From Roseitalea sp. (lineage in GTDB: Bacteria > Pseudomonadota > Alphaproteobacteria > Rhizobiales > Rhizobiaceae): 64,000 nucleotides of DNA. The position numbers were made by a program, and so were the translations under genes. Shown here in pieces: positions 4,309 to 30,526 of the stretch (within the stretch, counting starts at the first letter, position 1; every line of letters begins with the position of its first letter). Location of the stretch: assembly GCA_041752455.1 (NCBI GenBank), contig JBGSWL010000140.1, positions 45,423-109,422 on the forward strand, read 5' to 3'. The notes under the pieces are model-generated. The model was not told the origin of the DNA. It worked only from the letters and a program-made list of their open reading frames with translations, and did not search any database.

Positions 4309-5106
4309 ATGCAATTTGCCAGCTTGAACGGGGTCGTGCTGCACTATCAGGTCGTGGCTGCCCCCAACGATCGCCCGACCATCGTGTTTGCCAATTCGCT
4401 TGGCACCGATTTTCGCATCTGGCGCGATGTGATCATCCGGCTCGTCGGCGAGGCGGGTTTCGTCATGTACGACAAGCGCGGCCACGGGCTCTCCACCACC
4501 GGTCCGACGCCTTACGCCATCGACGACCATATCGGCGATCTGGAAGCGCTGCTCGATCACCTCGGCGTGACGAAAGCCATCATCTGCGGCCTATCGGTCG
4601 GCGGCATGATTGCCATGGGACTAGCGTCCAAGCGGCGCGATCTCGTCAAGGCCCTCATCCTTTGCGACACCGCGCCGAAGATCGGCACGGCAGCGATCTG
4701 GAATGATCGCATCGCGGCCATCGAGGCAAACGGGATCGCCTCGGTCTCGGACATGATCCTCGAGCGCTGGTTCACCAAGGAATTCCGCAGTCCGGGCAGC
4801 GCCGAACTGGATGGCTACCGGATGATGCTGAACCGGCAGGATCCGGCCGGCTATGTATCGACCTGCGCAGCGATCCGCGATGCAGACCTTACCGAAAAGG
4901 CACGCGCGCTGAAACTGCCGGTTGCCTGCATTGTCGGGGCGGAAGACGGCTCGACACCGCCGTCGCTGGTGGCCGAGATGGCACGCACGATCCCCGGCGC
5001 GCTCTATGATGTGATCCCCGCCTGCGGGCATATTCCATGCGTGGAAAGGCCGGTCGAACTTACCGACATCATTCGCGGGTTCATCGGCGGGCTGGACGCG
5101 GCGTGA
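4309..5106 (+). CDS. pcaD: 3-oxoadipate enol-lactonase (alpha/beta hydrolase)
   Basis: Typical PcaD N-terminus (MQFASLNGVVLHYQ...FANSLGTDFRIW), nucleophile elbow GLSVGG and a C-terminal GHIPCVE. The start was set at an internal ATG of ORF 4198..5106. Confidence 0.8.
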   Translation: MQFASLNGVVLHYQVVAAPNDRPTIVFANSLGTDFRIWRDVIIRLVGEAGFVMYDKRGHGLSTTGPTPYAIDDHIGDLEALLDHLGVTKAIICGLSVGGMIAMGLASKRRDLVKALILCDTAPKIGTAAIWNDRIAAIEANGIASVSDMILERWFTKEFRSPGSAELDGYRMMLNRQDPAGYVSTCAAIRDADLTEKARALKLPVACIVGAEDGSTPPSLVAEMARTIPGALYDVIPACGHIPCVERPVELTDIIRGFIGGLDAA

Positions 5107-5203: not shown

Positions 5204-5638
5204 ATGGATCAGGCAAGCGCCATGACCGCGGAAGACATGACCGAGGCGCTGCGTGCCGAGGGCATCCGCATCACGCGCCAGCGCACCGCCATCCTGCAGA
5301 CGCTTGCCGAATCGGCCGACCATCCGGATGCCAACGAGGTGTTTCGGCGCGCCAGTGCCATCGAGCCGTCGGTCTCGCTCTCGACAGTCTACCGGACGCT
5401 GAATGTTCTGGAAAAGCGCGGTGTCGTGCTGCGGCTTTCGTTTGAGGGTGCACCGTCGCGGTTTGAAACCGCCGATACCCCGCACCATGATCACATGATC
5501 GACCTCGACACCGGCGATGTGATCGAGTTCCAGTCCGACAAGATCGAAAAGCTGCAGGCGGAGATCGCTCGCGAACTGGGCTATGATCTGGTATTCCACA
5601 AGCTGGAACTCTACGGCACGCGCCAGCGCAAGGGTTGA
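5204..5638 (+). CDS. Fur family transcriptional regulator (Irr-like; lacks the CxxC pairs)
   Basis: Winged helix (RITRQRTAIL...STVYRTLNVLEKRG) and HHDH motif, with no Cys pairs. The start among several in-frame ATGs is uncertain; a GGCGAGG SD lies before 5204. Confidence 0.75.
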   Translation: MDQASAMTAEDMTEALRAEGIRITRQRTAILQTLAESADHPDANEVFRRASAIEPSVSLSTVYRTLNVLEKRGVVLRLSFEGAPSRFETADTPHHDHMIDLDTGDVIEFQSDKIEKLQAEIARELGYDLVFHKLELYGTRQRKG

Positions 5639-6853: not shown

Positions 6854-7780
6854 ATGAACAATCCGCTTCGGCCTGATCGCCGCCAGTTTGCCGCTGCCCT
6901 TGGTGCTTGTGCGATGCTGCCGTTTTTGCCGCGCCTCTCAACGAGCGCCAGTGCCAAGGCGGTGGGTGACTATGAACTGACTGTGCTTTCCGACGGGGCG
7001 CTGACACTGCCGCTGGATTTCCTCTATCCGGACGTGCCGCGCGATGCGCTGGATGCCATCCTGAATGCCTCGGGCCAGCCGACCGACATGTTGAGACCGG
7101 ACTGCAACGTCACGCTGCTGCGCAGTGCCGATCGCGTGGTGCTGTTTGATGTCGGGGCCGGTGGCAATTTCATGCCGACGGCAGGCCGTCTGCCGCAGAG
7201 CCTGGCCGATGCCGGTGTCGACCCGGCCGAGGTGACCGACGTGATCTTCACCCATGCGCACCCGGATCATCTCTGGGGCCTGCTGGATGAGTTCGACGAG
7301 ATCCTGTTTGCAGATGCGGCGTTCCATATCAACCAGACCGAGTGGGACTATTGGCGCGCCGACGGTACGCTCGAAGCAATGCCAGAGGAGCGCAAGAGCT
7401 TTGTCGTCGGCGCGCAAAGCCGACTGGCGGCGCTCGAAGACCGGATTACGTTCTTCAAGGCCGGTGACGAAGTGGTTTCGGGCGTCGAGGCAGTGGATAC
7501 GGCGGGTCACACGCCGGGCCATACATCGTTTGCCGTTCATGGCGGAGCGTCGCCGCTGATGATCCTTGGCGATGCCATCAGCAATTTTGCGATCTCGTTT
7601 GAAAAGCCCGATTGGCCGACCGGTTCCGATCATGATCCGGTCACCGGGGCCGCTGCGAGGGTCAAGTTGCTCGATCGCCTCGTCACCGACGGGATGGAGA
7701 TTGTCGGCTATCATCTGCCGCATCCGGCAACGGGCCGGGTCGAGCGTGCGGGAACGGCCTACCGTTTCGTGCCGGCCTGA
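6854..7780 (+). CDS. Periplasmic MBL-fold metallo-hydrolase (SoxG/SoxH-like)
   Basis: Tat-like signal (RRQFAAALGACAM...ASA) and the HAHPDH metal motif. It lies between two YeeE genes next to soxR. Confidence 0.75.
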   Translation: MNNPLRPDRRQFAAALGACAMLPFLPRLSTSASAKAVGDYELTVLSDGALTLPLDFLYPDVPRDALDAILNASGQPTDMLRPDCNVTLLRSADRVVLFDVGAGGNFMPTAGRLPQSLADAGVDPAEVTDVIFTHAHPDHLWGLLDEFDEILFADAAFHINQTEWDYWRADGTLEAMPEERKSFVVGAQSRLAALEDRITFFKAGDEVVSGVEAVDTAGHTPGHTSFAVHGGASPLMILGDAISNFAISFEKPDWPTGSDHDPVTGAAARVKLLDRLVTDGMEIVGYHLPHPATGRVERAGTAYRFVPA

Positions 7781-15678: not shown

Positions 15679-15761
15679 GCGCAACAAGCGTTCGACAGCG
15701 ATGTCACTGTCTGATACATACGAAATACTGAATATGTATGCCTTTGATCCGGGAGGGAAAA

Positions 15762-17057
15762 ATGGCTGAAAAATCATCAAAAGCGAAGGGCGGCGTCGAT
15801 CAATCGCGCCGCAACTTCCTGGCCGCTGGCATTGCCGGCGGCGCTGCACTGGCGTCGGGCGGCGTTGCGCGCGCCAACGGCGACCCGCTGATCACCGAGG
15901 TGCAGGACTGGGCCTCCGTCTTCGGTGACGGCGTCGATGCAACGCCTTATGGCCTACCGATCGAGTTCGAGAGTGACGTCATCCGCCGCAACGTGCCTTG
16001 GCTCACGGCCGATGTGACGTCTTCGATCAACTTCACGCCGATCCACGCCCTTGACGGCACGATCACGCCGGCGGGCTGTGCCTTCGAGCGTCATCATTCG
16101 GGTGCGATCGAACTGAAGAAGGAAGACTACCGGCTGATGATCAACGGTCTCGTCGATCAGCCGCTGGTCTTCACCTATGCGGATCTGGAGCGCTTCCCGC
16201 GCATCAACCAGATCCTTTTCTGCGAGTGCGCCGCCAATACCGGCATGGAATGGGCCGGTGCGCAGCTTAACGGTGCGCAGTTCACGCATGGCATGATCCA
16301 CAACATGGAATATTCCGGCATACCGTTGCGCACGCTGCTGGAAGAAGCCGGGCTTGGCGCAGCCGGTGACTTCAAGGACAAGTGGGTCTATGTGGAAGGG
16401 GCCGATGCCTCGTCCAATGGCCGCTCGATCCCGCTCGAAAAGGCGCTGGACGATTGCCTTGTCGCCATCAAGGCCAATGGCGAGGCGCTTCGCAAGGAGC
16501 ACGGCTATCCGGTCCGTCTCGTCGTTCCCGGCTGGGAAGGCAATATGTGGGTCAAGTGGCTGCGGCGCATCGAGGTGACCGACGGCGCGGTGGAAAGCCG
16601 CGAGGAAACCTCGAAGTACACCGACACCCTGGCCGATGGCACGTCGCGCAAATGGACCTGGGTGATGGATGCCAAGTCGGTGATCACCTCGCCGTCGCCG
16701 CAGATGCCGATCACGCACGGCAAAGGCCCGTTGGTCATCACCGGGCTTGCCTGGTCCGGCCATGGCCGCATCACCCGCGTCGATGTCTCCAAGGATGGCG
16801 GCAAGACCTGGGAAACGGCGCGCCTCGGCGAGACGCAAGGGGCGACCAAGGCGCTCACCCGCTTCTATCTCGACACGACCTGGAACGGCGAAGACATGCT
16901 GCTGCAGTCGCGTGCCATTGACGAGACGGGCTATGTCCAGCCGACCAAGGACCAGCTGCGCGAAGTGCGTGGGCTGAACTCGGTTTACCACAACAACTGC
17001 ATCCAGACCTGGCATGTGAATCCTGACGGGACGGCGGAAAATGTCGAAGTATCGTGA
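15762..17057 (+). CDS. soxC: Sulfane dehydrogenase molybdopterin subunit SoxC
   Basis: Tat signal (SRRNFLAAG) and a sulfite-oxidase-family molybdopterin domain, followed by overlapping soxD. Confidence 0.9.
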   Translation: MAEKSSKAKGGVDQSRRNFLAAGIAGGAALASGGVARANGDPLITEVQDWASVFGDGVDATPYGLPIEFESDVIRRNVPWLTADVTSSINFTPIHALDGTITPAGCAFERHHSGAIELKKEDYRLMINGLVDQPLVFTYADLERFPRINQILFCECAANTGMEWAGAQLNGAQFTHGMIHNMEYSGIPLRTLLEEAGLGAAGDFKDKWVYVEGADASSNGRSIPLEKALDDCLVAIKANGEALRKEHGYPVRLVVPGWEGNMWVKWLRRIEVTDGAVESREETSKYTDTLADGTSRKWTWVMDAKSVITSPSPQMPITHGKGPLVITGLAWSGHGRITRVDVSKDGGKTWETARLGETQGATKALTRFYLDTTWNGEDMLLQSRAIDETGYVQPTKDQLREVRGLNSVYHNNCIQTWHVNPDGTAENVEVS

Positions 17058-18111
17058 TCTCATCCTTGCAGCGACGGCACTCGTCGCCCTGACCTCCACT
17101 GTCCATGCCGGCGATCCTGCCGCCGGTGAAGCCGTGTTCAAGAAGTGCGCTGCCTGCCATGCGGTGGGCGAGGGCGCCAAGAACAAGGTCGGGCCGATGC
17201 TCAACGACATCATCGGCCGCACGGCCGGTACCGTCGAGGGGTTCAAGTATTCGCCGGCGATGATTGCTGCGGGCGAAGGCGGCCTCATATGGACGCCCGA
17301 AAACATCGCCGCCTACATGAAGGACCCGAAGGGCTTTGTTCCGAAGAACAGGATGTCTTTCGCCGGCCTGAAGAAGGACGAGGATATCGACAATCTGAAC
17401 GCTTATCTGGCGACATATTCCGCCGGACAGGCGTCCGAAGCGGCGCCGGTCGAAGCACCTGCTGCGGCGACAGAGACGGCTGCAGCCGCACCTGCGGCTG
17501 CTGCAACCGAAGCACCGGTCATGACCGACGTGGTGGCTTCCAAGGGCAAGTTCGGTCTCGGCCGGCAGGCAAGTGAAGACGAGATCCTGGCATGGGACGT
17601 CAAGGTCATGCCGGACGGGCGCGGCCTGCCGGACGGTTCCGGTTCGGTCGAAGACGGTGAACCGATCTTCTCGGAGAAATGCGCGGCCTGCCATGGCGAG
17701 TTCGCCGAAGGTGTCGACAACTGGCCGAAGCTGGCTGGCGGCGAAGACACGCTTGCCGATGATGATCCGCTGAAGACGGTCGGGTCTTACTGGCCCTACC
17801 TGTCGACGGTCTGGGATTACGTGCACCGGTCGATGCCGTACGGCAGCGCCGGCACACTGACCGCTGACGAGACCTACGCGATCACCGCCTACATCCTCTA
17901 CTCCAACAACCTGGTCGACGACGACTTCGTTCTGTCCAAGGAGAACTTCCTCGACGTTGAAATGCCCAATGCCGGCAACTTCGTCGTCGATGACCGGGCG
18001 GAGACCGAGTACAGCAAATGGCGTGCCGAGCCTTGCATGGAAAACTGCAAGGAGACGGTCGAAATCACCAAGAAGGCGACAGTCCTCGACGTCACCCCGG
18101 ACGGCGGCTGA
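17041..18111 (+). CDS. soxD: Diheme cytochrome c SoxD
   Basis: Two CAACH heme motifs, an Ala/Pro-rich linker, and an overlap with the soxC 3' end. Confidence 0.9.
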   Translation: MSKYRDLILAATALVALTSTVHAGDPAAGEAVFKKCAACHAVGEGAKNKVGPMLNDIIGRTAGTVEGFKYSPAMIAAGEGGLIWTPENIAAYMKDPKGFVPKNRMSFAGLKKDEDIDNLNAYLATYSAGQASEAAPVEAPAAATETAAAAPAAAATEAPVMTDVVASKGKFGLGRQASEDEILAWDVKVMPDGRGLPDGSGSVEDGEPIFSEKCAACHGEFAEGVDNWPKLAGGEDTLADDDPLKTVGSYWPYLSTVWDYVHRSMPYGSAGTLTADETYAITAYILYSNNLVDDDFVLSKENFLDVEMPNAGNFVVDDRAETEYSKWRAEPCMENCKETVEITKKATVLDVTPDGG

Positions 18112-24864: not shown

Positions 24865-24897
24865 GCCTGCCGCGGCGAGGGGGTAGCCGCGGCAGGC
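24865..24897. terminator. Perfect 12-bp GC hairpin between convergent kynU and the S8 protease gene
   Basis: GCCTGCCGCGGC, a 9-nt loop, then GCCGCGGCAGGC. The weak T tract makes efficiency uncertain. Confidence 0.5.
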
Positions 24898-24980
24898 CGT
24901 CCGGTTTGGCCCGGCAATCCATGCGACGGGGGTCAGATGTGACGGGCGCCCGGCATGTGCTCAACGCGTGGCGCCGCGCC

Positions 24981-26420
24981 TTATTCCCCGGAAACGGCAA
25001 AGACAGCGCTGGCGTCGCAAATGGCTGCGACCTTGATCAGCCCGTGGCCGAAAATGTCGTCGCGGCCGGCCTCGCCAAGGTCCTCGCTCAAGTCGGCCAG
25101 CCGCTTGGCAATCGCTTCCGGCGTGCTGTCCGGCTCGAGCGAGCGAAGAAGCCCCGCTGCTGCGGCAACGAATGGCGCAGCAAAGGAGGTGCCGGTCTTC
25201 GTACGGGCCCCGCGGATTGAAGCTGCTGCCCAGACATCGACCCCCGGCGCGGCAAAATCGATATGGCCGCCGCGTACGGCTCTGCGATAGGGATTGAGGG
25301 CGCGATCGACGCCGGTTACCGCGATCACGTCATCGTAGGCAGCCGGATAGAGCGGTTCTGACGCAGGCCCGGCGTTCCCGGCGGCGGCGACAACCACGGT
25401 CCTTGTCGAGATGATCTGCCCGATCAGGGATTCGAGGACTGCATTGTCCGGGCCTGCCAGCGACAGGTTGATGACATCGACCCCGGCTTTTGCCACCGCA
25501 TCTATGGCCAGGACGAGACTGTAGACATCGGTGCGTTCGTCACCGTTGACCGTTTCGAACGGATCGGCGGCGGTCACACTGGCCCAGGGCAAGAGGCCCG
25601 GCGTGCGGGAGGATGGCGATCCGACAAGAAGCGCCGCAACTGCGGTTCCGTGCTGGCGATCGGACGGCGCGGCAAGCCCGGACCTGTCATTTTGCACGAA
25701 CTGAAGGTCTGCATCGACCAATGCCTCATGCGCCGCATTGATGCCGGTATCGACCAGCCCGATGCGGATCGGGCGCTTGCACGCAGCCGGCAGGGCATTC
25801 GGCTCCGGCCAACCGATCAGTGAACGGTCCGCGCAGTGGTTCCCGGTGCAGGCGGTGCCCTCCGGGGCCGCGCCCGGACGGTAATAGTGGTTGAAATCGG
25901 CGGCAGCAGCCGGATTGGCGGCGCGCACGGCAGCGCGTGCGTCTTCGAGGTTGGTTCCTTGCGGAACACCAAGCCGGATGACCGATACGGAGCCGGCAGA
26001 CAGGGCGCTTCGGCTGAGAACCGTGTAGCCGTTGCCTTGAAGTGCGGAAAGTTGATCGTCTGCAAGGCCGATCGCAATGACCTGCGCCGGGGCCTGTACC
26101 GGCCGGATCACGGGCGCTGGCTGTCGCGCGGCTGTCGGCGCGGGGCGTCTTGCACCCTGCTGTTCCGCTTTCGGTTTTGGAGCGGACTGAAGCTGGCGGG
26201 GGGAAGGGCCCGACGAGATGCTTCCGCTTCCAACACTCGTCGCGGCGCCGTCATCATCGTCATCAACATCATCATCGTCATCGCCGTCATCATCATCGCC
26301 GCCGTCGTCATAATCATCCGCATGGGCAATCGCACCGTCAAAGCCGGGTAGTGAAACCGGTACCGTCACGACGGCGGCAACGAGCGTGGCGGCGAGGATA
26401 GTCTGGATGATGTTTTTCAT
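24981..26420 (-). CDS. Secreted S8 (subtilisin-like) serine peptidase with an N-terminal poly-Asp tract and propeptide-like region
   Basis: Signal peptide ending AHA. Triad contexts are LVDTGI (Asp), HGTAVA (His) and GTSFAAP (Ser). AGGAGAG SD precedes ATG 26420. Confidence 0.85.
   Translation of the reverse strand: MKNIIQTILAATLVAAVVTVPVSLPGFDGAIAHADDYDDGGDDDDGDDDDDVDDDDDGAATSVGSGSISSGPSPRQLQSAPKPKAEQQGARRPAPTAARQPAPVIRPVQAPAQVIAIGLADDQLSALQGNGYTVLSRSALSAGSVSVIRLGVPQGTNLEDARAAVRAANPAAAADFNHYYRPGAAPEGTACTGNHCADRSLIGWPEPNALPAACKRPIRIGLVDTGINAAHEALVDADLQFVQNDRSGLAAPSDRQHGTAVAALLVGSPSSRTPGLLPWASVTAADPFETVNGDERTDVYSLVLAIDAVAKAGVDVINLSLAGPDNAVLESLIGQIISTRTVVVAAAGNAGPASEPLYPAAYDDVIAVTGVDRALNPYRRAVRGGHIDFAAPGVDVWAAASIRGARTKTGTSFAAPFVAAAAGLLRSLEPDSTPEAIAKRLADLSEDLGEAGRDDIFGHGLIKVAAICDASAVFAVSGE
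26247..26318 (-). repeat. Low-complexity GAT/GAC tract encoding DDYDDGGDDDDGDDDDDVDDDDDG
   Basis: Read directly from the S8 protease translation, immediately after the predicted signal-peptide cleavage site. Confidence 0.9.
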
Positions 26421-26510
26421 GGGGCCGGCTCTCCTGCCTTGGAAAATGGGTTGGCTCCGCCAGATGTCCACTACGGGACATGCTGACATCGAAAAATCTG
26501 ATGGCGGCAC

Positions 26511-26541
26511 GGAATAAACGCTTGGGCGGGCGCGTTATTCC
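26511..26541. promoter_or_regulatory. Palindromic element containing ECF-type promoter motifs in both directions
   Basis: Sequence is GGAATAAACG-N12-CGTTATTCC. On the + strand it reads GGAATA-N16-CGTT, 43 nt before the sigma gene ATG. On the - strand it reads GGAATA-N15-CGTT, facing the S8 protease gene. Confidence 0.5.
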
Positions 26542-26578
26542 ATCATGACGGATCAAATGGCGCTGAGGGGGCGTCCTG

Positions 26579-27073
26579 ATGACTGACGACAGTTTTGCCG
26601 ATGCCGTTGTCGCGCAATTGGCGGCAATGCGTCGTTACGGATTGATGCTGTGCCGCTCGCCGGACCTCGCTGACGATCTTGTCCAGATCGCCTGCGAGAA
26701 AGCGTTTGCCAACCGCGGATCGTTCGACCCCGCGACCAATATGCGGGCCTGGCTGTTCCGGATATTGCGGAACAGTTTCATCGACTCAACGCGTCGCGGA
26801 CGGCCGCTCAAGGATGCGGTCGATATCGATGAGCAACCCGACCTGTTGTCGGTCGATGGCGTGCGCCTGCAGGAAAACCGCATGTTGGTGGCGGAGGTTT
26901 GCGATGCACTTGCCAGTCTGCCGCCGGCACAGCAGGAAATCCTGATTCTGACCTGCGTCGATGAATTGACCTATCGCGAGGCAGCGGACCTGCTCGAAAT
27001 TCCGATCGGAACGGTGATGAGCCGGTTGGCACGGGCGCGGATCGCCCTTGGCGAGCAGCTTGGAATAAACTGA
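26579..27073 (+). CDS. ECF-type RNA polymerase sigma-70 family factor
   Basis: Sigma-2 region (DLVQIACEKAF...WLFRILRNSFID) and sigma-4 region (LTYREAADLLEIPIGTVMSRLARAR), about 164 aa. Confidence 0.9.
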   Translation: MTDDSFADAVVAQLAAMRRYGLMLCRSPDLADDLVQIACEKAFANRGSFDPATNMRAWLFRILRNSFIDSTRRGRPLKDAVDIDEQPDLLSVDGVRLQENRMLVAEVCDALASLPPAQQEILILTCVDELTYREAADLLEIPIGTVMSRLARARIALGEQLGIN

Positions 27074-27112
27074 CCATGGCAGCGTTTCCATGACGACAAT
27101 GGAGCTTGGATC

Positions 27113-27901
27113 ATGACACAGACCCACACACCCGGCGGGTTCGATGACGAAACGCTGATGGCGTATGCCGACGGGCTGCTTTCGTCCGTGCGCGCGACCG
27201 AAATCGAGACTGCCGCCGCTAGTGATGCCAGTCTGCGCAAACGGATCGACGTGTTTGTCGAAACCCGCCGCAGGCTTGCCGCAGCGTTTGGCGCCGCCGA
27301 TCCGACACCTATGCCCGACGGGTTTGAAGCGCGCATCCGGGCGCTGGCGGCACCCGCTTCGGCACGCAGGGAGACTGAGGCCGTTGTCGATCTTGCTGCG
27401 GCGAGGGCCGGCCGTGCGCAGGAGTCGGTACGCAAGGGCGCTCCCTGGTTTGTCGTGCCGTTGGCGGCGTCACTGGCGCTGGTTGCCGGCGGTTTGCTCG
27501 GCCGCCTGACGGCTGTGCCCGTTCAAGGCAATCCCGTGTCGCCATTGGCGACCCTTGCCAGCGCCGATGTGTCGGTCGCGCTGTCTTCGGTTCCGGCTGG
27601 CGAGCGCATCAAACTGACGGGCGGCGACCAGTTTCAGGTGGTCTCGACCTTCCGCGATGGTGCAGGTTCGCTTTGTCGGGAATTCGAGATCGATACGGCT
27701 ACCGGGGCTGCAACGGTCGCCGTCGCCTGTCGGGCAGATGCCGTCTGGGCTGTCCAGTTTGCCGCAGCGTCTGCTACCGGCACCGACGGTTATGCGCCGG
27801 CGTCCTCGATGGAGGCGCTGGACGCATGGCTTGCGGCGACCGGGGCCGGTGCACCTCTGGACGCTGCGGCGGAAAAGACCGCCTTGCAGCAACGGCCCTG
27901 A
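27113..27901 (+). CDS. Membrane-spanning anti-sigma factor (no zinc-binding HxxxCxxC motif)
   Basis: N-terminal anti-sigma helix pattern (DDETLMAYADGLL), a single TM helix (WFVVPLAASLALVAGGLLG) and a periplasmic C-domain. It lies directly downstream of the ECF sigma gene. Confidence 0.75.
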   Translation: MTQTHTPGGFDDETLMAYADGLLSSVRATEIETAAASDASLRKRIDVFVETRRRLAAAFGAADPTPMPDGFEARIRALAAPASARRETEAVVDLAAARAGRAQESVRKGAPWFVVPLAASLALVAGGLLGRLTAVPVQGNPVSPLATLASADVSVALSSVPAGERIKLTGGDQFQVVSTFRDGAGSLCREFEIDTATGAATVAVACRADAVWAVQFAAASATGTDGYAPASSMEALDAWLAATGAGAPLDAAAEKTALQQRP

Positions 27902-27925
27902 CATGTTCGCGAAAGGACATCGGAG

Positions 27926-28645
27926 ATGAATTTTCTGGCACGCCGCCCGCAGCCCGCGCCGGTCATCCGGTTCCTGTGCCGGCCGGAGGACGAAGGCGTC
28001 ATTGCGCCACCTGTTCCCGCCAAGGCCTATCTGCCGGACTGGTTCCGCAAACTGCCAGCGGTCGATCCGGACGCCGCCGGGCTCGACAATACGGGGCTGA
28101 CCGTCAAGCGCTGCATGCCATTTCTCGATGCGATGACGACCGGATGGATCATTCCACTGGCAGCGACCGTTCGCATGCAGGTGTCGGAGAACGGCACCCG
28201 CGTGGACAGTGCCTGGGATTTTGACCGCACGCTGGTCTCCGGCCATGGTGTGCATCAGGTCAAGGGGCACCCGATGAGCGACCGTCCGCCCTGCAAGTTC
28301 CACAACTATTGGACGATCGTGACGCCGCCCGGCTGGAGTTGCCTGTTCGTCAATCCGCTGAACCGCCCCAACGGCCTGTTCGAGGTGGTGGCAGGCGTTG
28401 TTGATACGGACACCTATGCCTCCGAGATCCACTTCCCGTTTTTCGCAACCGCCGAAGACGGGCTTCACGTCATCGAAAAGGGATCACCGATCGTTCAGGT
28501 CATTCCGTTCCGGCGTGATACGGCGATGCTTGATGCCGAGATCCGCGCCGAAACCACCGACGAAAAACGTCATCGCGAGACCATTCTGCGCAACACCAAG
28601 GCAAGCGAGGGCTGGTACCGCGAGCATGCGCGCGCCAAGCGCTGA
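27926..28645 (+). CDS. Conserved-looking hypothetical protein, cytoplasmic, function unknown
   Basis: 239 aa with no signal peptide or TM helix. It starts 24 nt after the anti-sigma stop, so it is probably co-transcribed. I cannot name a domain with confidence. Confidence 0.6.
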   Translation: MNFLARRPQPAPVIRFLCRPEDEGVIAPPVPAKAYLPDWFRKLPAVDPDAAGLDNTGLTVKRCMPFLDAMTTGWIIPLAATVRMQVSENGTRVDSAWDFDRTLVSGHGVHQVKGHPMSDRPPCKFHNYWTIVTPPGWSCLFVNPLNRPNGLFEVVAGVVDTDTYASEIHFPFFATAEDGLHVIEKGSPIVQVIPFRRDTAMLDAEIRAETTDEKRHRETILRNTKASEGWYREHARAKR

Positions 28646-28674
28646 GAAGGGGCTTTCGCTGTCAAACACGTCCA

Positions 28675-28707
28675 CGAAAAAGGGCCGGTTTCCCGGCCCT
28701 TCTTTTT
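28675..28707. terminator. Bidirectional rho-independent terminator
   Basis: GAAAAA-AGGGCCGG-tttc-CCGGCCCT-TCTTTTT. There is a T-run after the stem on both strands, between convergent genes. Confidence 0.8.
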
Positions 28708-28721
28708 GCGGTCTGCCCGTC

Positions 28722-29174
28722 TCAGTTGCTCGAATTGCTGCTCGAGTTGGACGACGAGTTGCTGCTCGAGTTGGACGATGAGTTCGATGAAGAATTGCTG
28801 CTCGAGTTGGACGATGAGTTGCTGTTCGAATTCGACGACGAGTTGGAGTTTGAATTCGACGACGAGTTGCTGTTCGAATTGCTGTTGGAATTGGACGAGG
28901 AGTTCGAGTTGGCGTTGCTGTTGGAATTGGACGACGAGTTGGAGCTGGAGTTCGACGACGAATTGCTGTTGGAATTCGAGCTTCCGCCGACACCCTTGGT
29001 GCGCTTCAGCTTTTTGGTGCGGAACTGGACCTGCGCGACGTCCTGATATTCCGAAGCGACCGGGCCGGTCTGGGTCGGGGCATGTGGTGCCTTCAGGCTG
29101 GCCGAGGCTGGCACGATGGCGGTTGCCGCTGCCAACAGGCCGGCGGTCAGGGTGGTGAGATGCTTTTTCAACAT
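28722..29174 (-). CDS. Secreted Ser/Asn-repeat protein (150 aa; the C-terminal 86 aa are S/N only, with one A)
   Basis: AGGAAA SD; signal peptide MLKKHLTTLTAGLLAAATAIVPASA; basic patch RTKKLKRTKG; then (SSN/SN)n up to the stop codon. Confidence 0.7.
   Translation of the reverse strand: MLKKHLTTLTAGLLAAATAIVPASASLKAPHAPTQTGPVASEYQDVAQVQFRTKKLKRTKGVGGSSNSNSNSSSNSSSNSSSNSNSNANSNSSSNSNSNSNSNSSSNSNSNSSSNSNSNSSSNSSSNSSSNSSSNSSSNSSSNSSSNSSN
28725..28982 (-). repeat. Degenerate 6/9-bp tandem repeat (higher-order period about 60 bp) encoding the Ser/Asn tract
   Basis: Units such as ttgctgctcgagttggacga recur. Serine is written with several different codons (AGC, TCG, TCC) and Asn with AAC/AAT. Confidence 0.9.
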
Positions 29175-29221
29175 GGCGATTTCCTTTGCTGCGACCCGCA
29201 ACAAGCGCGGGACAAAAGATC

Positions 29222-29247
29222 AACGCAGCGGGCTCCTCGACTATTCC
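29222..29247 (-). promoter_or_regulatory. ECF-type promoter candidate for the Ser/Asn-repeat gene
   Basis: The minus strand reads GGAATA-N16-CGTT, about 48 nt upstream of the ATG. The hexamer, spacing and -10 are the same as upstream of the ECF sigma gene. Confidence 0.5.
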
Positions 29248-29467
29248 CTGCTGTTTTTGCAGGCAGACGCGTGCCTGTTTCTTTCCCATGCAAGCGTCTC
29301 TGATTGAACAAAGCCGGCAAAACGACGCCAAAGCAGTTGGCATGCGTGATGCATGTTCATAAGTGCCTCCCAGGGCTTTGGAACGGTGGTGTGGGTCCCG
29401 TGTCCAACGCAACGCCGGTTGTGCTGCCAGCTTTCCTCCAGCGGGCGCATTGCCGGCGTTGTCCGTT

Positions 29468-30526
29468 CTAGGACAACTGAGGTGTGACAGCGGCAAGCAG
29501 TTCGGACGTCTTGCGAAGCGCGGCGCCTGTCGCGACTGTCATTTGCGGCAGCAACATCCACTCAAGCGTCCATGCGGCACCCGACCGCTCCTGCTCGTGG
29601 ACCATCGACTGTTGCATGCCGGCGGAAAGGGTGGCGTTGAAACGGGCGAGGGTGACGAGCGTTTCGGCAGCCACGGGATTGTTCTTGTGGGCCATGGCCG
29701 AAGACGTCCCGCCGCCTTCGAGCACAAGATCGTCGATGCCGTTCTGCGCCATCAGCGCCACATCCATGCCGATCTTGCCGAGCGAACCGGTCAGCCGTGC
29801 CATCCAGTCTGTGAGCGCCACAAGGCCGGAACGGTCGGCGTGCCAGCAGCGGCCCGGGTCGGCAAGACCAAGCCTTGCAGCGAGTGCGGCGCGGACGGCG
29901 GGACCATTTTCGCCAAGCATGTCGAGGGTTCCGGCTGCCCCGCCCAATTGCACGGCAAGCACGCGTTGCTTCAGGACGTGCAGATCATGCGCGTGGTTTG
30001 CAGGCGGTGCGCGCCACGCCGACAGCCTGTCACCCCATGTGATCGGGATCGCCGTCTGCATGCGCGTGCGGGCCATCAATGGTGTTTTGCCATGCGATTC
30101 AATCATTTGTGCGAGAGCGCTGTCGATCAGATTCAATCGGCTCAGAAACAGATTCAGCACCGGAACAAGGCGCAGCGCGAGGCTGGTGTCGATCGCGTCT
30201 TGGCTGGTCGCGCCAAAATGCACCGACCCGTCATGCGGCGCGCCGACAGCGATGCGCAATTGCCTGACGAGTTCCGGCACGGCAACGCCATCGCGTGCAG
30301 TTGCCATGCCGATAGCCCGGATATCCGGCTCGAAGGCAGTGATCGCCGCATTGATGGCATTGGCAGCTTCGCCCGAAATGATGCCGCAGGACGCCTGCGC
30401 CTCGGCGAGGGCAGCTTCGAAGCCAAGCATGGCGTCAAGGTCTGCCTTGATCGAAAAGGCAGAAGTGGTCTCGCCATCACCCAGAAGGACGGAGAGGAGC
30501 GGGGCGTTGAAGGGCGTGTAGGACAT
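29468..30526 (-). CDS. pcaB: 3-carboxy-cis,cis-muconate cycloisomerase
   Basis: Fumarate-lyase superfamily (SSAMAHKNNP signature), typical PcaB N-terminus, pca operon context. Confidence 0.9.
   Translation of the reverse strand: MSYTPFNAPLLSVLLGDGETTSAFSIKADLDAMLGFEAALAEAQASCGIISGEAANAINAAITAFEPDIRAIGMATARDGVAVPELVRQLRIAVGAPHDGSVHFGATSQDAIDTSLALRLVPVLNLFLSRLNLIDSALAQMIESHGKTPLMARTRMQTAIPITWGDRLSAWRAPPANHAHDLHVLKQRVLAVQLGGAAGTLDMLGENGPAVRAALAARLGLADPGRCWHADRSGLVALTDWMARLTGSLGKIGMDVALMAQNGIDDLVLEGGGTSSAMAHKNNPVAAETLVTLARFNATLSAGMQQSMVHEQERSGAAWTLEWMLLPQMTVATGAALRKTSELLAAVTPQLS

What the first reader, a model, noticed from the sequence alone, without database searches (positions are those of the whole stretch)
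28725..28982. 86-residue Ser/Asn-only C-terminal tract, maintained at the protein rather than the DNA level
The repeat is degenerate as DNA: Ser is written as AGC, TCG or TCC and Asn as AAC or AAT, with units such as gctgct, gctgtt, ggagtt and cgacga. On the minus strand it nevertheless translates to only S and N, plus one A. The two plus-strand frames give a five-letter L/E/D/F/A mix and lack a start context. Together with the SD, signal peptide and ECF-type promoter, this argues for selection on an S/N polymer. The tract is far less GC-rich than its surroundings and runs to the stop codon with no anchor motif. Candidate roles are a hydrophilic surface or matrix polymer, a glycosylation scaffold, an amyloid or prion-like polar zipper, or a protease substrate. 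The length may vary between strains.
Basis: seen in the sequence. Interest (0 to 1): 0.6.

Follow-up and report, generated by a model that had tools for sequence, protein, structure and literature searches.

The report
Hidden secreted Ser/Asn polymer gene
This is a real gene for a small exported protein whose last 86 residues are almost only serine and asparagine; it belongs to a stress-sigma-factor gene module found across alphaproteobacteria, is routinely missed or annotated on the wrong strand, and has no known function.

Summary
Window 28725..28982 (minus strand) encodes 86 residues (56 Ser, 29 Asn, 1 Ala) at the C-terminus of a 150-aa ORF (29174..28722). The ORF has a Sec-type signal peptide, a Shine-Dalgarno site, a GGAATA-N16-CGTT promoter and a terminator.

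It is not a one-off. All 78 related loci with enough sequence carry the same kind of gene beside a DUF6065 gene. About 58 of 80 also carry an S8 protease, an ECF sigma factor and an anti-sigma factor. In 66 of 75 loci the same promoter motif sits 67-79 nt (two at 155-166 nt) before the start codon.

The module is the Sinorhizobium meliloti RpoE6 (group ECF26) locus. There the orthologue has a published mapped transcription start 8 nt after the motif, and a proposed ORF, SMa_ORF_1. The databases instead carry the antisense frame as SMa0146.

Tract length changes in frame between near-identical strains. AlphaFold predicts disorder. DUF6065 has a dUTPase-like fold.

Function is unknown. My best reading is a sigma-induced, exported, disordered polar polymer that works with the cytoplasmic DUF6065 protein and the exported protease. 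Direct modification by DUF6065 is plausible but untested.

The parts
29222..29247 (-). ECF26-type promoter of the S/N gene: -35 GGAATA (29247..29242), 16-nt spacer, -10 CGTT (29225..29222). The predicted TSS is about 29213-29215, giving a 5'UTR of about 40 nt.
   Evidence: 6 GGAATA-N14-17-CGTT matches in the window against 0.14 expected, 5 of them in 24963-29247; the same motif lies 67-79 nt before the ATG in 64 of 75 loci (66 of 75 within 250 nt); in S. meliloti the mapped TSS lies 8 nt after CGTT.
29181..29186 (-). Shine-Dalgarno site AAGGAA, 6 nt before the ATG at 29174.
   Evidence: AGGAG/AAGGA sits at the same distance in the related loci.
29100..29174 (-). Sec-type signal peptide, residues 1-25: MLKKHLTTLTAGLLAAATAIVPASA, with cleavage after ASA. 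It has no Cys, so it is not a lipoprotein.
   Evidence: by inspection (basic n-region, 16-residue hydrophobic core, A-x-A). It is the only helix in the AF2 model. An equivalent peptide was found in 72 of 77 related genes.
28983..29099 (-). Mature N-terminal linker, residues 26-64. It contains the motif VAQVQF shared with Rhodobacter-type relatives (VEQVDFK) and a basic patch, RTKKLKRTKGVGG, just before the tract.
   Evidence: AF2 pLDDT rises to 68-76 over residues 41-60.
28725..28982 (-). Ser/Asn tract, residues 65-150 (S56 N29 A1), in the register (N/S)-S. It is predicted disordered. This copy lacks the poly-Asp tail usual in relatives.
28722..28724 (-). Stop codon TGA.
28680..28701 (.). GC-rich hairpin flanked by A and T runs. 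It is a bidirectional terminator shared with the convergent DUF6065 gene.
27926..28645 (+). DUF6065 protein, 239 aa, with no signal peptide. It is the constant partner of the S/N gene and the orthologue of S. meliloti SMa0148. It has a dUTPase-like beta-barrel fold and an invariant GVVDTDxY motif.
27113..27901 (+). Transmembrane anti-sigma factor (EcfR6-like), with its own GGAATA..CGTT motif at 27062..27086 inside the end of the sigma gene.
   Evidence: The same internal promoter was reported for ecfR6.
26579..27073 (+). ECF sigma factor (RpoE6-like).
26511..26541 (.). Near-palindrome carrying GGAATA..CGTT on both strands, between the sigma gene and the protease gene.
24981..26420 (-). Exported S8 serine protease with a poly-Asp tract directly after its signal peptide (SMa0142-like).

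Best explanation
**What it is.** The tract is the working part of a real 150-aa pre-protein: Sec signal peptide, 39-residue linker, then an 86-residue Ser/Asn polymer. The gene is a member of a five-gene module conserved across alphaproteobacteria, and this is the S. meliloti RpoE6 (group ECF26) module:
- ECF sigma factor
- membrane anti-sigma factor
- exported S8 protease with a poly-Asp tract
- cytoplasmic DUF6065 protein
- the S/N protein

**Shown.**
- The frame and strand.
- The dedicated GGAATA-N15/16-CGTT promoter, SD site and terminator.
- Conservation of the architecture, while only composition and register are conserved in the tract.
- Rapid in-frame length change between strains.
- Predicted disorder.
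- Constant pairing with DUF6065.

**Inferred mechanism.**
1. When the anti-sigma factor releases the sigma factor, the cell transcribes the S/N gene from its own promoter.
2. The cell exports the unfolded product through Sec and removes the signal peptide.
3. A neutral, strongly hydrogen-bonding, disordered polymer is delivered to the periplasm or envelope, together with the protease.
4. DUF6065 is an enzyme-like cytoplasmic protein. It stays next to the S/N gene even where the other three genes lie elsewhere, so it most likely acts on the precursor before export, by modifying or escorting it.
5. The S8 protease may cut at the basic junction before the tract.

**My odds.**
- Real exported protein: 0.95.
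- Member of the ECF26/RpoE6-type regulon: 0.9.
- Direct functional coupling to DUF6065: 0.45.
- Covalent modification of the tract: 0.3.
For: **Gene anatomy.** ORF, signal peptide, SD site, promoter and terminator are all present.

**Conservation.**
- 77 of 80 loci found through DUF6065 hold an S/N-tract ORF. One more has the gene with the tract masked as N. The other two contigs end before it.
- The gene is convergent with DUF6065 in most lineages and co-directional in the Rhizobium, Shinella and Agrobacterium lineages. The pairing therefore survives rearrangement.
- S8, sigma and anti-sigma lie within 6 kb in about 58 loci, in several different orders.

**Promoter and transcription.**
- The motif lies 67-79 nt before the ATG in 64 of 75 loci, and within 250 nt in 66.
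- Each module gene carries its own copy of the motif. In S. meliloti 1021 the other three copies are the experimentally mapped RpoE6-dependent promoters.
- A published mRNA TSS, SMa_TSS0230 at pSymA 80344 (+), has a 42-nt 5'UTR. The new ORF SMa_ORF_1 (80386..80772) equals the S/N protein. The TSS lies 8 nt after CGTT.
- RNA-run contigs of an R. leguminosarum-type strain show a gap after DUF6065. A separate unit then starts at 4832-4856 (predicted TSS about 4832) and ends near 5295. Its depth is 3-fold higher than DUF6065.

**Selection on the protein.**
- Synonymous codons occur in genome-typical proportions, with 1 non-S/N residue in 86.
- Across 80 tracts about 4,480 S/N codons stand against about 200 others, mostly D and R.
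- Length changes are always in frame.

**Structure.**
- AF2 gives pLDDT of about 40 across the tract.
- DUF6065 is 68-77% identical across orders with 70 invariant columns. Its model has pLDDT 80.5, and its best PDB fold matches are trimeric dUTPases.
Against: - There is no transcript or protein evidence for this organism. No RNA run holds the window.
- The RNA contigs for the Rhizobium orthologue carry no strand information.
- The RpoE6-overexpression array measured the antisense annotation (SMa0146, logFC 2.3), not the S/N strand.
- No inducing signal and no mutant phenotype are known for RpoE6.
- Any direct action of DUF6065 or of the protease on the S/N protein is inferred from gene neighbourhood only.
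- Distant DUF6065 paralogues (27-32% identity) have no S/N neighbour. They sit by aldo-keto reductases and methyltransferases, so the family may act on small molecules.
- This copy lacks the acidic tail found in most relatives.
- The signal peptide was judged by eye, not by a predictor.
Confidence: 0.6

Rival explanations
1. The S/N protein is an unmodified hydrophilic polymer that acts on its own in the periplasm or envelope. It might serve in hydration, crowding, gel or polar-zipper formation, or surface coating. DUF6065 is merely co-regulated and does something unrelated in the cytoplasm.
For: The tract is predicted disordered. Tract length is free to vary between 29 and 91 residues, which suits a bulk material. 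Distant DUF6065 paralogues work without any S/N partner. The (N/S)-S register would put Ser on one face of a beta-strand and Asn/Ser on the other.
Against: DUF6065 and the S/N gene stay together in 78/78 loci, including about 20 where the rest of the module is not within 6 kb. The extreme purity and fixed register suggest recognition by a specific partner. A plain Sec signal leaves the protein in the periplasm, not in an extracellular matrix.
Confidence: 0.25
2. The protein is a RiPP-like multi-core precursor. DUF6065 modifies the repeated N-S-x-S units in the cytoplasm. After Sec export the S8 protease cuts the tract into many small modified peptides, and these are the active product.
For: The architecture is signal peptide plus conserved short N-terminal motif plus repeated units. 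An S8 protease is co-regulated, with weak similarity to the QhpE and PatA/G maturation proteases. A basic junction precedes the tract in most members. One distant DUF6065 sits in an operon with an amidohydrolase and methyltransferases, near an S8 peptidase.
Against: No chemistry is known for DUF6065. There are no cleavage sites inside the tract. About 20 loci lack the protease nearby. No transporter or immunity gene is conserved in the module.
Confidence: 0.12
3. The S/N protein is a decoy substrate or ligand in the signalling circuit. It might occupy the S8 protease, or bind the periplasmic domain of the anti-sigma factor, to set feedback on the sigma factor.
For: It is co-regulated with the sigma factor, the anti-sigma factor and the protease from separate copies of one promoter type.
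Against: The DUF6065 + S/N pair persists in loci without sigma or anti-sigma genes nearby. Nothing links the tract to the anti-sigma domain. This model leaves the DUF6065 pairing unexplained.
Confidence: 0.08
4. The real gene is the antisense Leu/Glu/Asp/Phe frame, as annotated for S. meliloti (SMa0146) and by PGAP.
For: That frame is open in 79 of 80 tracts. It is in the public databases as a hypothetical protein with 73 cluster members. S. meliloti has 5' ends on that strand inside it.
Against: It cannot contain a stop in S/N-coding DNA, so its openness is automatic. It has no conserved start, SD site, promoter motif or non-repeat domain. In the window it begins just past the terminator of the upstream gene. 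The 5'-RACE aimed at it yielded no reported TSS. The S/N strand has the signal peptide, the SD site, the promoter motif and the mapped TSS.
Confidence: 0.02
5. The tract is a non-coding DNA repeat or an assembly artefact.
For: TRF reports degenerate tandem periods. Short-read assemblies sometimes break here: the L005 tract is N-masked and L002 is frame-shifted.
Against: Four metagenome runs give the identical tract with 0 differences. The codons are heterogeneous yet 85 of 86 are S/N. The architecture is conserved across orders.
Confidence: 0.01

Closest known systems
Sinorhizobium meliloti RpoE6-EcfR6 locus on pSymA (SMa0142 protease, SMa0143 rpoE6, SMa0144 ecfR6, SMa_ORF_1/'SMa0146', SMa0148), group ECF26. 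Sources: Lang et al. 2018 (PMC6180224) and Schlueter et al. 2013 (PMC3616915).
   Same: The five genes are the same and the promoter type is the same (-35 GGAATA, -10 CGTT). The protease is divergent from the sigma gene. The DUF6065 protein is 66.5% identical. The S/N protein has the same build. A TSS has been mapped for the S/N ORF.
   Different: Gene order differs: here DUF6065 is the third cistron of the sigma operon. This tract is longer (86 against 59 residues). This copy ends at the tract, whereas the Sinorhizobium and Mesorhizobium copies end in a basic/aromatic tail and most others in poly-Asp. No function is known there either. The literature treats the locus as 'hypothetical proteins' and uses the antisense annotation.
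Bufferins and other RiPP precursors that carry Sec signal peptides and are modified in the cytoplasm before export.
   Same: A small exported precursor is encoded beside a cytoplasmic enzyme-like protein of a DUF family and placed under stress or ECF-type control. This is a resemblance in logic only.
   Different: There is no MNIO/DUF692 enzyme and no Cys-containing core. The 'core' here is a long low-complexity polymer. No modification has been shown.
Ser-Asp repeat (Clf/Sdr) and serine-rich repeat surface proteins of Gram-positive bacteria.
   Same: Both have a long Ser-based low-complexity tract in an exported protein. NCBIfam gives only composition-driven, far sub-threshold hits (ClfB 29.8 bits against a cut-off of 999).
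   Different: This protein has no ligand-binding domain, no LPXTG anchor, no accessory Sec system and no known glycosyltransferases. It is 150 aa against more than 800, and the host is Gram-negative.
Trimeric dUTPases (for the DUF6065 partner).
   Same: The predicted beta-barrel fold is similar (Foldseek E 1e-4, TM 0.73 on the target). The invariant G-V-V-D-T-D-x-Y resembles dUTPase motif III; that comparison is from memory.
   Different: There is no significant sequence match (Pfam dUTPase E 0.19 in 2 of 30 members; none in PDB). DUF6065 is about 90 residues longer. Its C-terminus is helical rather than the Gly-rich motif V arm.

Membership tests
RpoE6-type ECF26 module (S. meliloti SMa0142-SMa0148) | ECF sigma factor followed by a transmembrane anti-sigma factor. 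| tested here: met
   Pfam Sigma70_r2/r4_2 and an NCBIfam anti-sigma hit. The sigma is 41-57% identical to sigma genes of the related loci. Formal ECF26 assignment with ECFfinder was not run.
RpoE6-type ECF26 module (S. meliloti SMa0142-SMa0148) | S8 serine protease transcribed divergently from the sigma gene. | tested here: met
   Peptidase_S8 E 1e-30. It is divergent at 26420/26579 with a shared promoter palindrome.
RpoE6-type ECF26 module (S. meliloti SMa0142-SMa0148) | Target promoters with -35 GGAATA and -10 (C)GT(T). | tested here: met
   Six matches against 0.14 expected, five of them in the module. The consensus is quoted in PMC6180224.
RpoE6-type ECF26 module (S. meliloti SMa0142-SMa0148) | SMa0148-type DUF6065 gene and an S/N ORF (SMa_ORF_1) in the module. 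| tested here: met
   DUF6065 is 66.5% identical to pSymA 80963-81670. SMa_ORF_1 has the same build.
RpoE6-type ECF26 module (S. meliloti SMa0142-SMa0148) | Sigma-dependent transcription of the S/N gene. | not testable with these tools
   The evidence is limited to the motif and the mapped TSS in S. meliloti. The array probe was on the antisense strand.
Sec-exported protein with a cleavable type I signal peptide | Basic n-region, hydrophobic h-region of 10-16 residues, A-x-A cleavage site, no lipobox Cys. | tested here: met
   By inspection of MLKKH / LTTLTAGLLAAATAIV / PASA|S. No signal-peptide predictor was available. Export itself is untested.
RiPP precursor | Post-translational modification of a core by a co-encoded enzyme, and leader removal. 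| not testable with these tools
   The only evidence is gene neighbourhood.
Trimeric dUTPase family (for DUF6065) | The five conserved sequence motifs, including the C-terminal Gly-rich motif V, and a significant match to PF00692. | tested here: not met
   PF00692 scores E 0.19 in 2 of 30 members. There is no PDB sequence hit. The C-terminus is helical. Only the fold is similar.
SD-repeat / serine-rich repeat adhesins | Ligand-binding domain, cell-wall anchor, SD or SRR repeats. | tested here: not met
   No Pfam domain was found. NCBIfam scores are far below cut-off. The tract runs to the stop codon.
Prion-like / polar-zipper amyloid domain | N/Q-rich composition and self-templating aggregation. 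| tested here: inconclusive
   The tract is 34% Asn with no Gln and is predicted disordered as a monomer. Aggregation cannot be tested here.

The most novel reading that the evidence does not exclude
DUF6065 would be a new kind of peptide-modifying enzyme with a dUTPase-like fold. It would use a (pyrimidine) nucleotide or nucleotide-activated donor to decorate the Ser or Asn side chains of the S/N tract in the cytoplasm. The decorated polymer would then be exported by Sec and trimmed by the poly-Asp S8 protease. This would be a widespread, sigma-factor-controlled 'polymer RiPP' or protein-glycosylation-like system in alphaproteobacteria. It would have stayed hidden because the substrate gene is missed or called on the wrong strand.
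Probability: 0.2. Interest if true: 0.85.

Novelty: new variant of a known kind. Interest (0 to 1): 0.6.

Why it matters
The RpoE6-type ECF26 module is present in many rhizobia, agrobacteria, Rhodobacterales and relatives, often on symbiotic plasmids. Yet no signal, phenotype or product function is known for it.

This work shows that one of its best-conserved members is an exported Ser/Asn polymer that annotation pipelines overlook. Only about 8 family members were found called in the S/N frame, against 1,650 clusters of its neighbour. In the model organism the gene is recorded on the antisense strand, and that misdirected at least one published 5'-RACE experiment.

Correcting the annotation gives a concrete, easily tagged read-out for the regulon. 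It also gives a defined candidate substrate for two uncharacterised proteins, DUF6065 and the poly-Asp S8 protease.

It is also a clean example of a low-complexity protein kept by selection on composition and register while its length drifts.

Tried and rejected
The window's own genome and its relatives could not be searched.

**Searches that found nothing**
- Searches with the non-repeat N-terminus found nothing: the word-indexed search and full HMMER over 1.84 billion representatives. The linker is too short and variable, so the family can only be traced through its neighbour.
- An exact look-up of the window's DUF6065 protein and of my delimited S/N proteins found none on record.
- No RNA run holds the window.
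- Rfam gave no credible RNA family in 28300-29600.
- Pfam gave nothing for the S/N protein, and NCBIfam only compositional noise.

**Results of limited use**
- Several 'RNA' runs of the Rhizobium orthologue assemble into contigs of 12-47 kb and look DNA-like. Only the fragmented runs (X9-X13) were informative, and they carry no strand.
- The sigma-70 promoter scan found nothing near the gene. That is consistent with ECF control.

**Ideas rejected**
- I rejected using open antisense frames or third-position substitution bias as evidence. Both are automatic for S/N-coding DNA.
- I rejected the GGAATA..CGTT matches at 24963-24987 and 17398-17421 as promoters. The first overlaps the protease stop codon and faces the end of a convergent gene. 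The second lies inside a gene on the other strand.
- Literature searches for DUF6065 and the SMa locus tags gave no functional study.
Full report
**1. What is in the sequence**

On the minus strand, an ORF runs from the ATG at 29174 to the TGA at 28724..28722 and encodes 150 residues:
- Residues 1-25 (MLKKHLTTLTAGLLAAATAIVPASA) have the basic start, hydrophobic core and A-x-A end of a Sec signal peptide. There is no lipobox cysteine.
- Residues 26-64 are a unique linker that ends in a basic patch (RTKKLKRTKGVGG).
- Residues 65-150 (28982..28725) are 56 Ser, 29 Asn and one Ala, and run straight to the stop codon.

The flanking signals fit a gene on this strand:
- An AAGGAA Shine-Dalgarno site lies 6 nt before the ATG.
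- GGAATA-N16-CGTT lies at 29247..29222.
- A GC-rich hairpin (28680..28701) lies between this gene and the convergent gene and can terminate both.

**2. Is it kept at the protein level?**

The evidence points to selection on the protein:
- Tandem Repeats Finder sees only degenerate periods of 12-60 nt at 67-71% matches. A fresher part at 90-93% lies in 28731-28820.
- The Ser and Asn codons occur in the same proportions as in nine neighbouring genes. TCG:TCC:AGC:TCA:TCT is 25:12:14:4:1 in the tract against 73:35:30:11:10 in the neighbours. AAC:AAT is 20:9 against 53:26.
- Only about 2-3 of the 9 single-base changes to an S or N codon keep S or N. Forty non-modal synonymous codons beside a single foreign residue is therefore far from neutral drift of a DNA repeat.

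In DNA that codes only S and N, the antisense L/E/D/F frame and one shifted sense frame cannot contain a stop codon. That antisense frame also shares its wobble position with the S/N frame. Open frames and third-position bias therefore prove nothing. The frame has to be assigned from what lies outside the tract.

**3. Relatives**

The non-repeat N-terminus finds nothing by sequence, neither in the word-indexed search nor by HMMER over 1.84 billion representatives. The family was traced instead through the convergent neighbour at 27926..28645, a DUF6065 protein.

A genome scan with DUF6065 returned 80 loci from Rhodobacterales and Hyphomicrobiales, 68-77% identical:
- 77 of them hold an ORF with an S/N tract of 29-91 residues (median 59) next to or within 2 kb of DUF6065.
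- One more (L005) has the gene with its tract masked as N.
- The remaining two contigs end too early.
- One locus (L002, a long-read MAG) has a frame break inside the tract.

The build is constant: signal peptide, a variable linker of 20-70 residues, the tract in the register (N/S)-S, then usually a tail.
- The linker often carries a D-P-x-x-R-F-hydrophobic or V-E-Q-V-D-F-K motif and a basic junction.
- The tail is usually one to five Asp. The Mesorhizobium and Sinorhizobium lineages have a basic/aromatic tail instead.
- The window copy has one of the longest tracts and no tail.

The gene is convergent with DUF6065 in most lineages and co-directional in the Rhizobium, Shinella and Agrobacterium lineages. 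The pairing therefore survives rearrangement.

About 58 loci also carry homologues of the window's S8 protease, ECF sigma and anti-sigma factor within 6 kb, in several different orders. About 20 loci (Aminobacter and others) have only the DUF6065 + S/N pair.

**4. Promoter and transcription**

GGAATA-N14-17-CGTT occurs six times in the window against 0.14 expected. Five of the six lie within 24963-29247. Four of them sit before the protease, the sigma gene, the anti-sigma gene and the S/N gene.

Across loci, 66 of 75 S/N genes have the motif within 250 nt of the ATG. In 64 of these it starts 67-79 nt before the ATG. An AGGAG-type site follows closer in.

Earlier notes of this scan pointed to the S. 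meliloti RpoE6 locus. I checked that lead against the papers and the sequence:
- Lang et al. 2018 place RpoE6 in group ECF26. They give the consensus as -35 GGAATA / -10 GT, and list the protease SMa0142, ecfR6 and SMa0148 as top targets with mapped promoters.
- In pSymA these three promoters are three of the four motif copies of the locus. The fourth copy sits before the S/N ORF.
- The paper's 'SMa0146' is the antisense E/L/D/F frame. The array probe carries the same strand prefix as SMa0148. The 5'-RACE primers for SMa0146 anneal to the antisense-strand transcript. The database protein AAK64735.1 is that frame.
- PGAP makes the same call in strain ml47.
- Schlueter et al. 2013 had mapped an mRNA start, SMa_TSS0230, at 80344 on the other strand. 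They proposed a new ORF, SMa_ORF_1 (80386..80772). I confirmed that this ORF is the S/N protein (MAKNW...), and that the start lies 8 nt after the CGTT of the fourth motif.

By the same spacing, the window's transcript should start near 29214.

Independent but weaker support comes from an R. leguminosarum-type strain:
- RNA-run contigs stop just after DUF6065 and leave the intergenic region uncovered.
- They resume at 4832-4856, where the promoter predicts a start near 4832.
- They end near 5295, with 3-fold higher depth than DUF6065.
- These contigs carry no strand.

No RNA run holds the window itself.

**5. Annotation gap**

A profile of 26 family members, searched against 5.8 billion protein clusters, returned only about eight true members called in the S/N frame. 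DUF6065 returned 1,650 clusters. The profile search scored only the 8,000 best word-sharing candidates, so the count is a lower bound. The gap is large all the same.

**6. Length variation**

| Comparison | Flank identity (150 nt upstream) | Tract lengths (residues) |
|---|---|---|
| S. meliloti 1021 vs ml47 | 100% | 59 vs 51 |
| R. leguminosarum-type strains | 97-99% | 62, 64, 68 |
| A Rhizobium/Allorhizobium group | 91-95% | 47 to 69 |

All changes are in frame. Four metagenome runs from the source study hold the window's tract with no difference. Assembled contigs would hide rare variants.

**7. Structure**

*S/N protein.* AlphaFold2 with the family alignment gives mean pLDDT 50.8, and about 40 across the tract. 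The only helix is in the signal peptide. There is a small rise over the conserved linker motif. As a monomer the tract is disordered.

*DUF6065.*
- Its model has pLDDT 80.5.
- Its best PDB fold matches are all trimeric dUTPases or dCTP deaminase. E is about 1e-4. TM is 0.39 on the query and up to 0.73 on the target.
- Sequence-level support is marginal: Pfam dUTPase scores E 0.19 in 2 of 30 members, and no PDB sequence matches.
- It has no signal peptide.
- It has 70 invariant columns across orders, including G-V-V-D-T-D-x-Y and several His, Lys and Arg.
- It looks like an enzyme, but I cannot name the reaction.

*Distant paralogues.* Two plasmid paralogues (27-32% identity) have no S/N neighbour and no GGAATA motif. 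They sit with aldo-keto reductases. In one case they also sit with an amidohydrolase and two methyltransferases, near a large S8 peptidase.

*Module proteases.* Most carry poly-Asp/Gly directly after the signal peptide. In 33 of 55, some 20-residue window holds at least 10 Asp.

**8. Interpretation**

Shown:
- The gene is real and lies on this strand.
- It carries an ECF26-type promoter.
- It is a conserved member of the RpoE6-type module.
- Selection acts on composition and register, not on length.
- It is always paired with DUF6065.

Inferred:
- On release of the sigma factor, the cell makes the pre-protein, exports it by Sec and cleaves it.
- This places a neutral, hydrogen-bonding, disordered polymer in the periplasm alongside a poly-Asp protease.

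The pairing with a cytoplasmic enzyme-like protein holds even without the rest of the module. It is the strongest clue to mechanism. It makes action on the precursor before export (modification or escort) my leading idea, at about 0.45. Covalent modification alone I put at about 0.3.

The main rival is an unmodified bulk polymer with DUF6065 only co-regulated. Less likely readings are a multi-core RiPP cut into small peptides, or a decoy in the signalling loop. The antisense-frame protein and a non-coding repeat are effectively excluded.

**9. Novelty**

The locus, its sigma factor and its promoter type are published. A supplementary table even lists the ORF in S. meliloti.

As far as the searchable literature shows, these points are not described:
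- that this ORF is a Ser/Asn polymer family conserved across two orders;
- its constant pairing with DUF6065;
- its length dynamics;
- the wrong-strand annotation that obscures it.

I class it as a new variant of a known kind: an exported low-complexity repeat protein inside a known ECF regulon. There is a real but unproven chance of new enzymology.

Noticed in passing
window 26511-26541: A 31-nt near-palindrome, GGAATAAACGCTTGGGCGGGCGCGTTATTCC, carries a complete GGAATA..CGTT motif on each strand. It lies between the divergent sigma and S8 protease genes.
   Followed up: partly
window 24963-24987 (-): A further GGAATA-N15-CGTT match overlaps the stop codon of the S8 protease gene. A hairpin follows at about 24866-24900, and then the 3' end of a convergent kynureninase-like gene. 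It is probably chance, or an antisense start.
   Followed up: partly
window 15738-18111 and 17398-17421: Genes for a sulfite-dehydrogenase-like molybdoenzyme and a cytochrome c lie about 9 kb from the module. A lone GGAATA..CGTT match lies inside the cytochrome gene on the opposite strand. ECF26 paralogues control sulfite oxidation in S. meliloti (PMC6180224), but no link is shown here.
   Followed up: no
L081 / pSymA 80666-80764 (-): Schlueter et al. list 5' ends on the antisense strand inside the S/N gene of S. meliloti (SMa_TSS0231-0233, up to 410 reads). This is more than the 95 reads of the S/N mRNA start. It could be an antisense RNA or 3' fragments of the convergent SMa0148 transcript.
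   Followed up: no
L083 1140-2937 (also L084): A 44%-GC, cyanobacterium-like metagenome contig encodes a signal-peptide protein with an S/N/E repeat tract that ends in WDWLTW. A JmjC/Cupin_8 oxygenase gene follows directly. This is a possible second enzyme type paired with S/N-rich exported proteins.
   Followed up: partly
L087 2898-8951 (S. medicae plasmid pMl1): A distant DUF6065 paralogue (27% identity) lies in an apparent operon: amidohydrolase, SAM methyltransferase, DUF6065, then an unannotated aldo-keto-reductase-like ORF. It sits beside a 795-aa S8 peptidase. There is no S/N gene and no GGAATA motif. A second paralogue (L088) also sits by an aldo-keto reductase.
   Followed up: partly
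L001-L080, S8 protease genes; window 26270-26350: The module's S8 proteases carry poly-Asp or Asp/Gly tracts directly after the signal peptide. Here the tract is DDYDDGGDDDDGDDDDDVDDDDDG. Most S/N proteins end in poly-Asp, and many begin A|DD after cleavage. Acidic tags are a shared theme of the module's exported proteins.
   Followed up: partly
L002 6720-7114; L005 about 6900-7010; L085 655-951: The S/N tract is a weak point for assemblies and genomes. There is a frame break in a long-read MAG (L002). There is an N-masked tract in a short-read MAG (L005). One copy is truncated next to a phage-integrase-like gene (L085).
   Followed up: no
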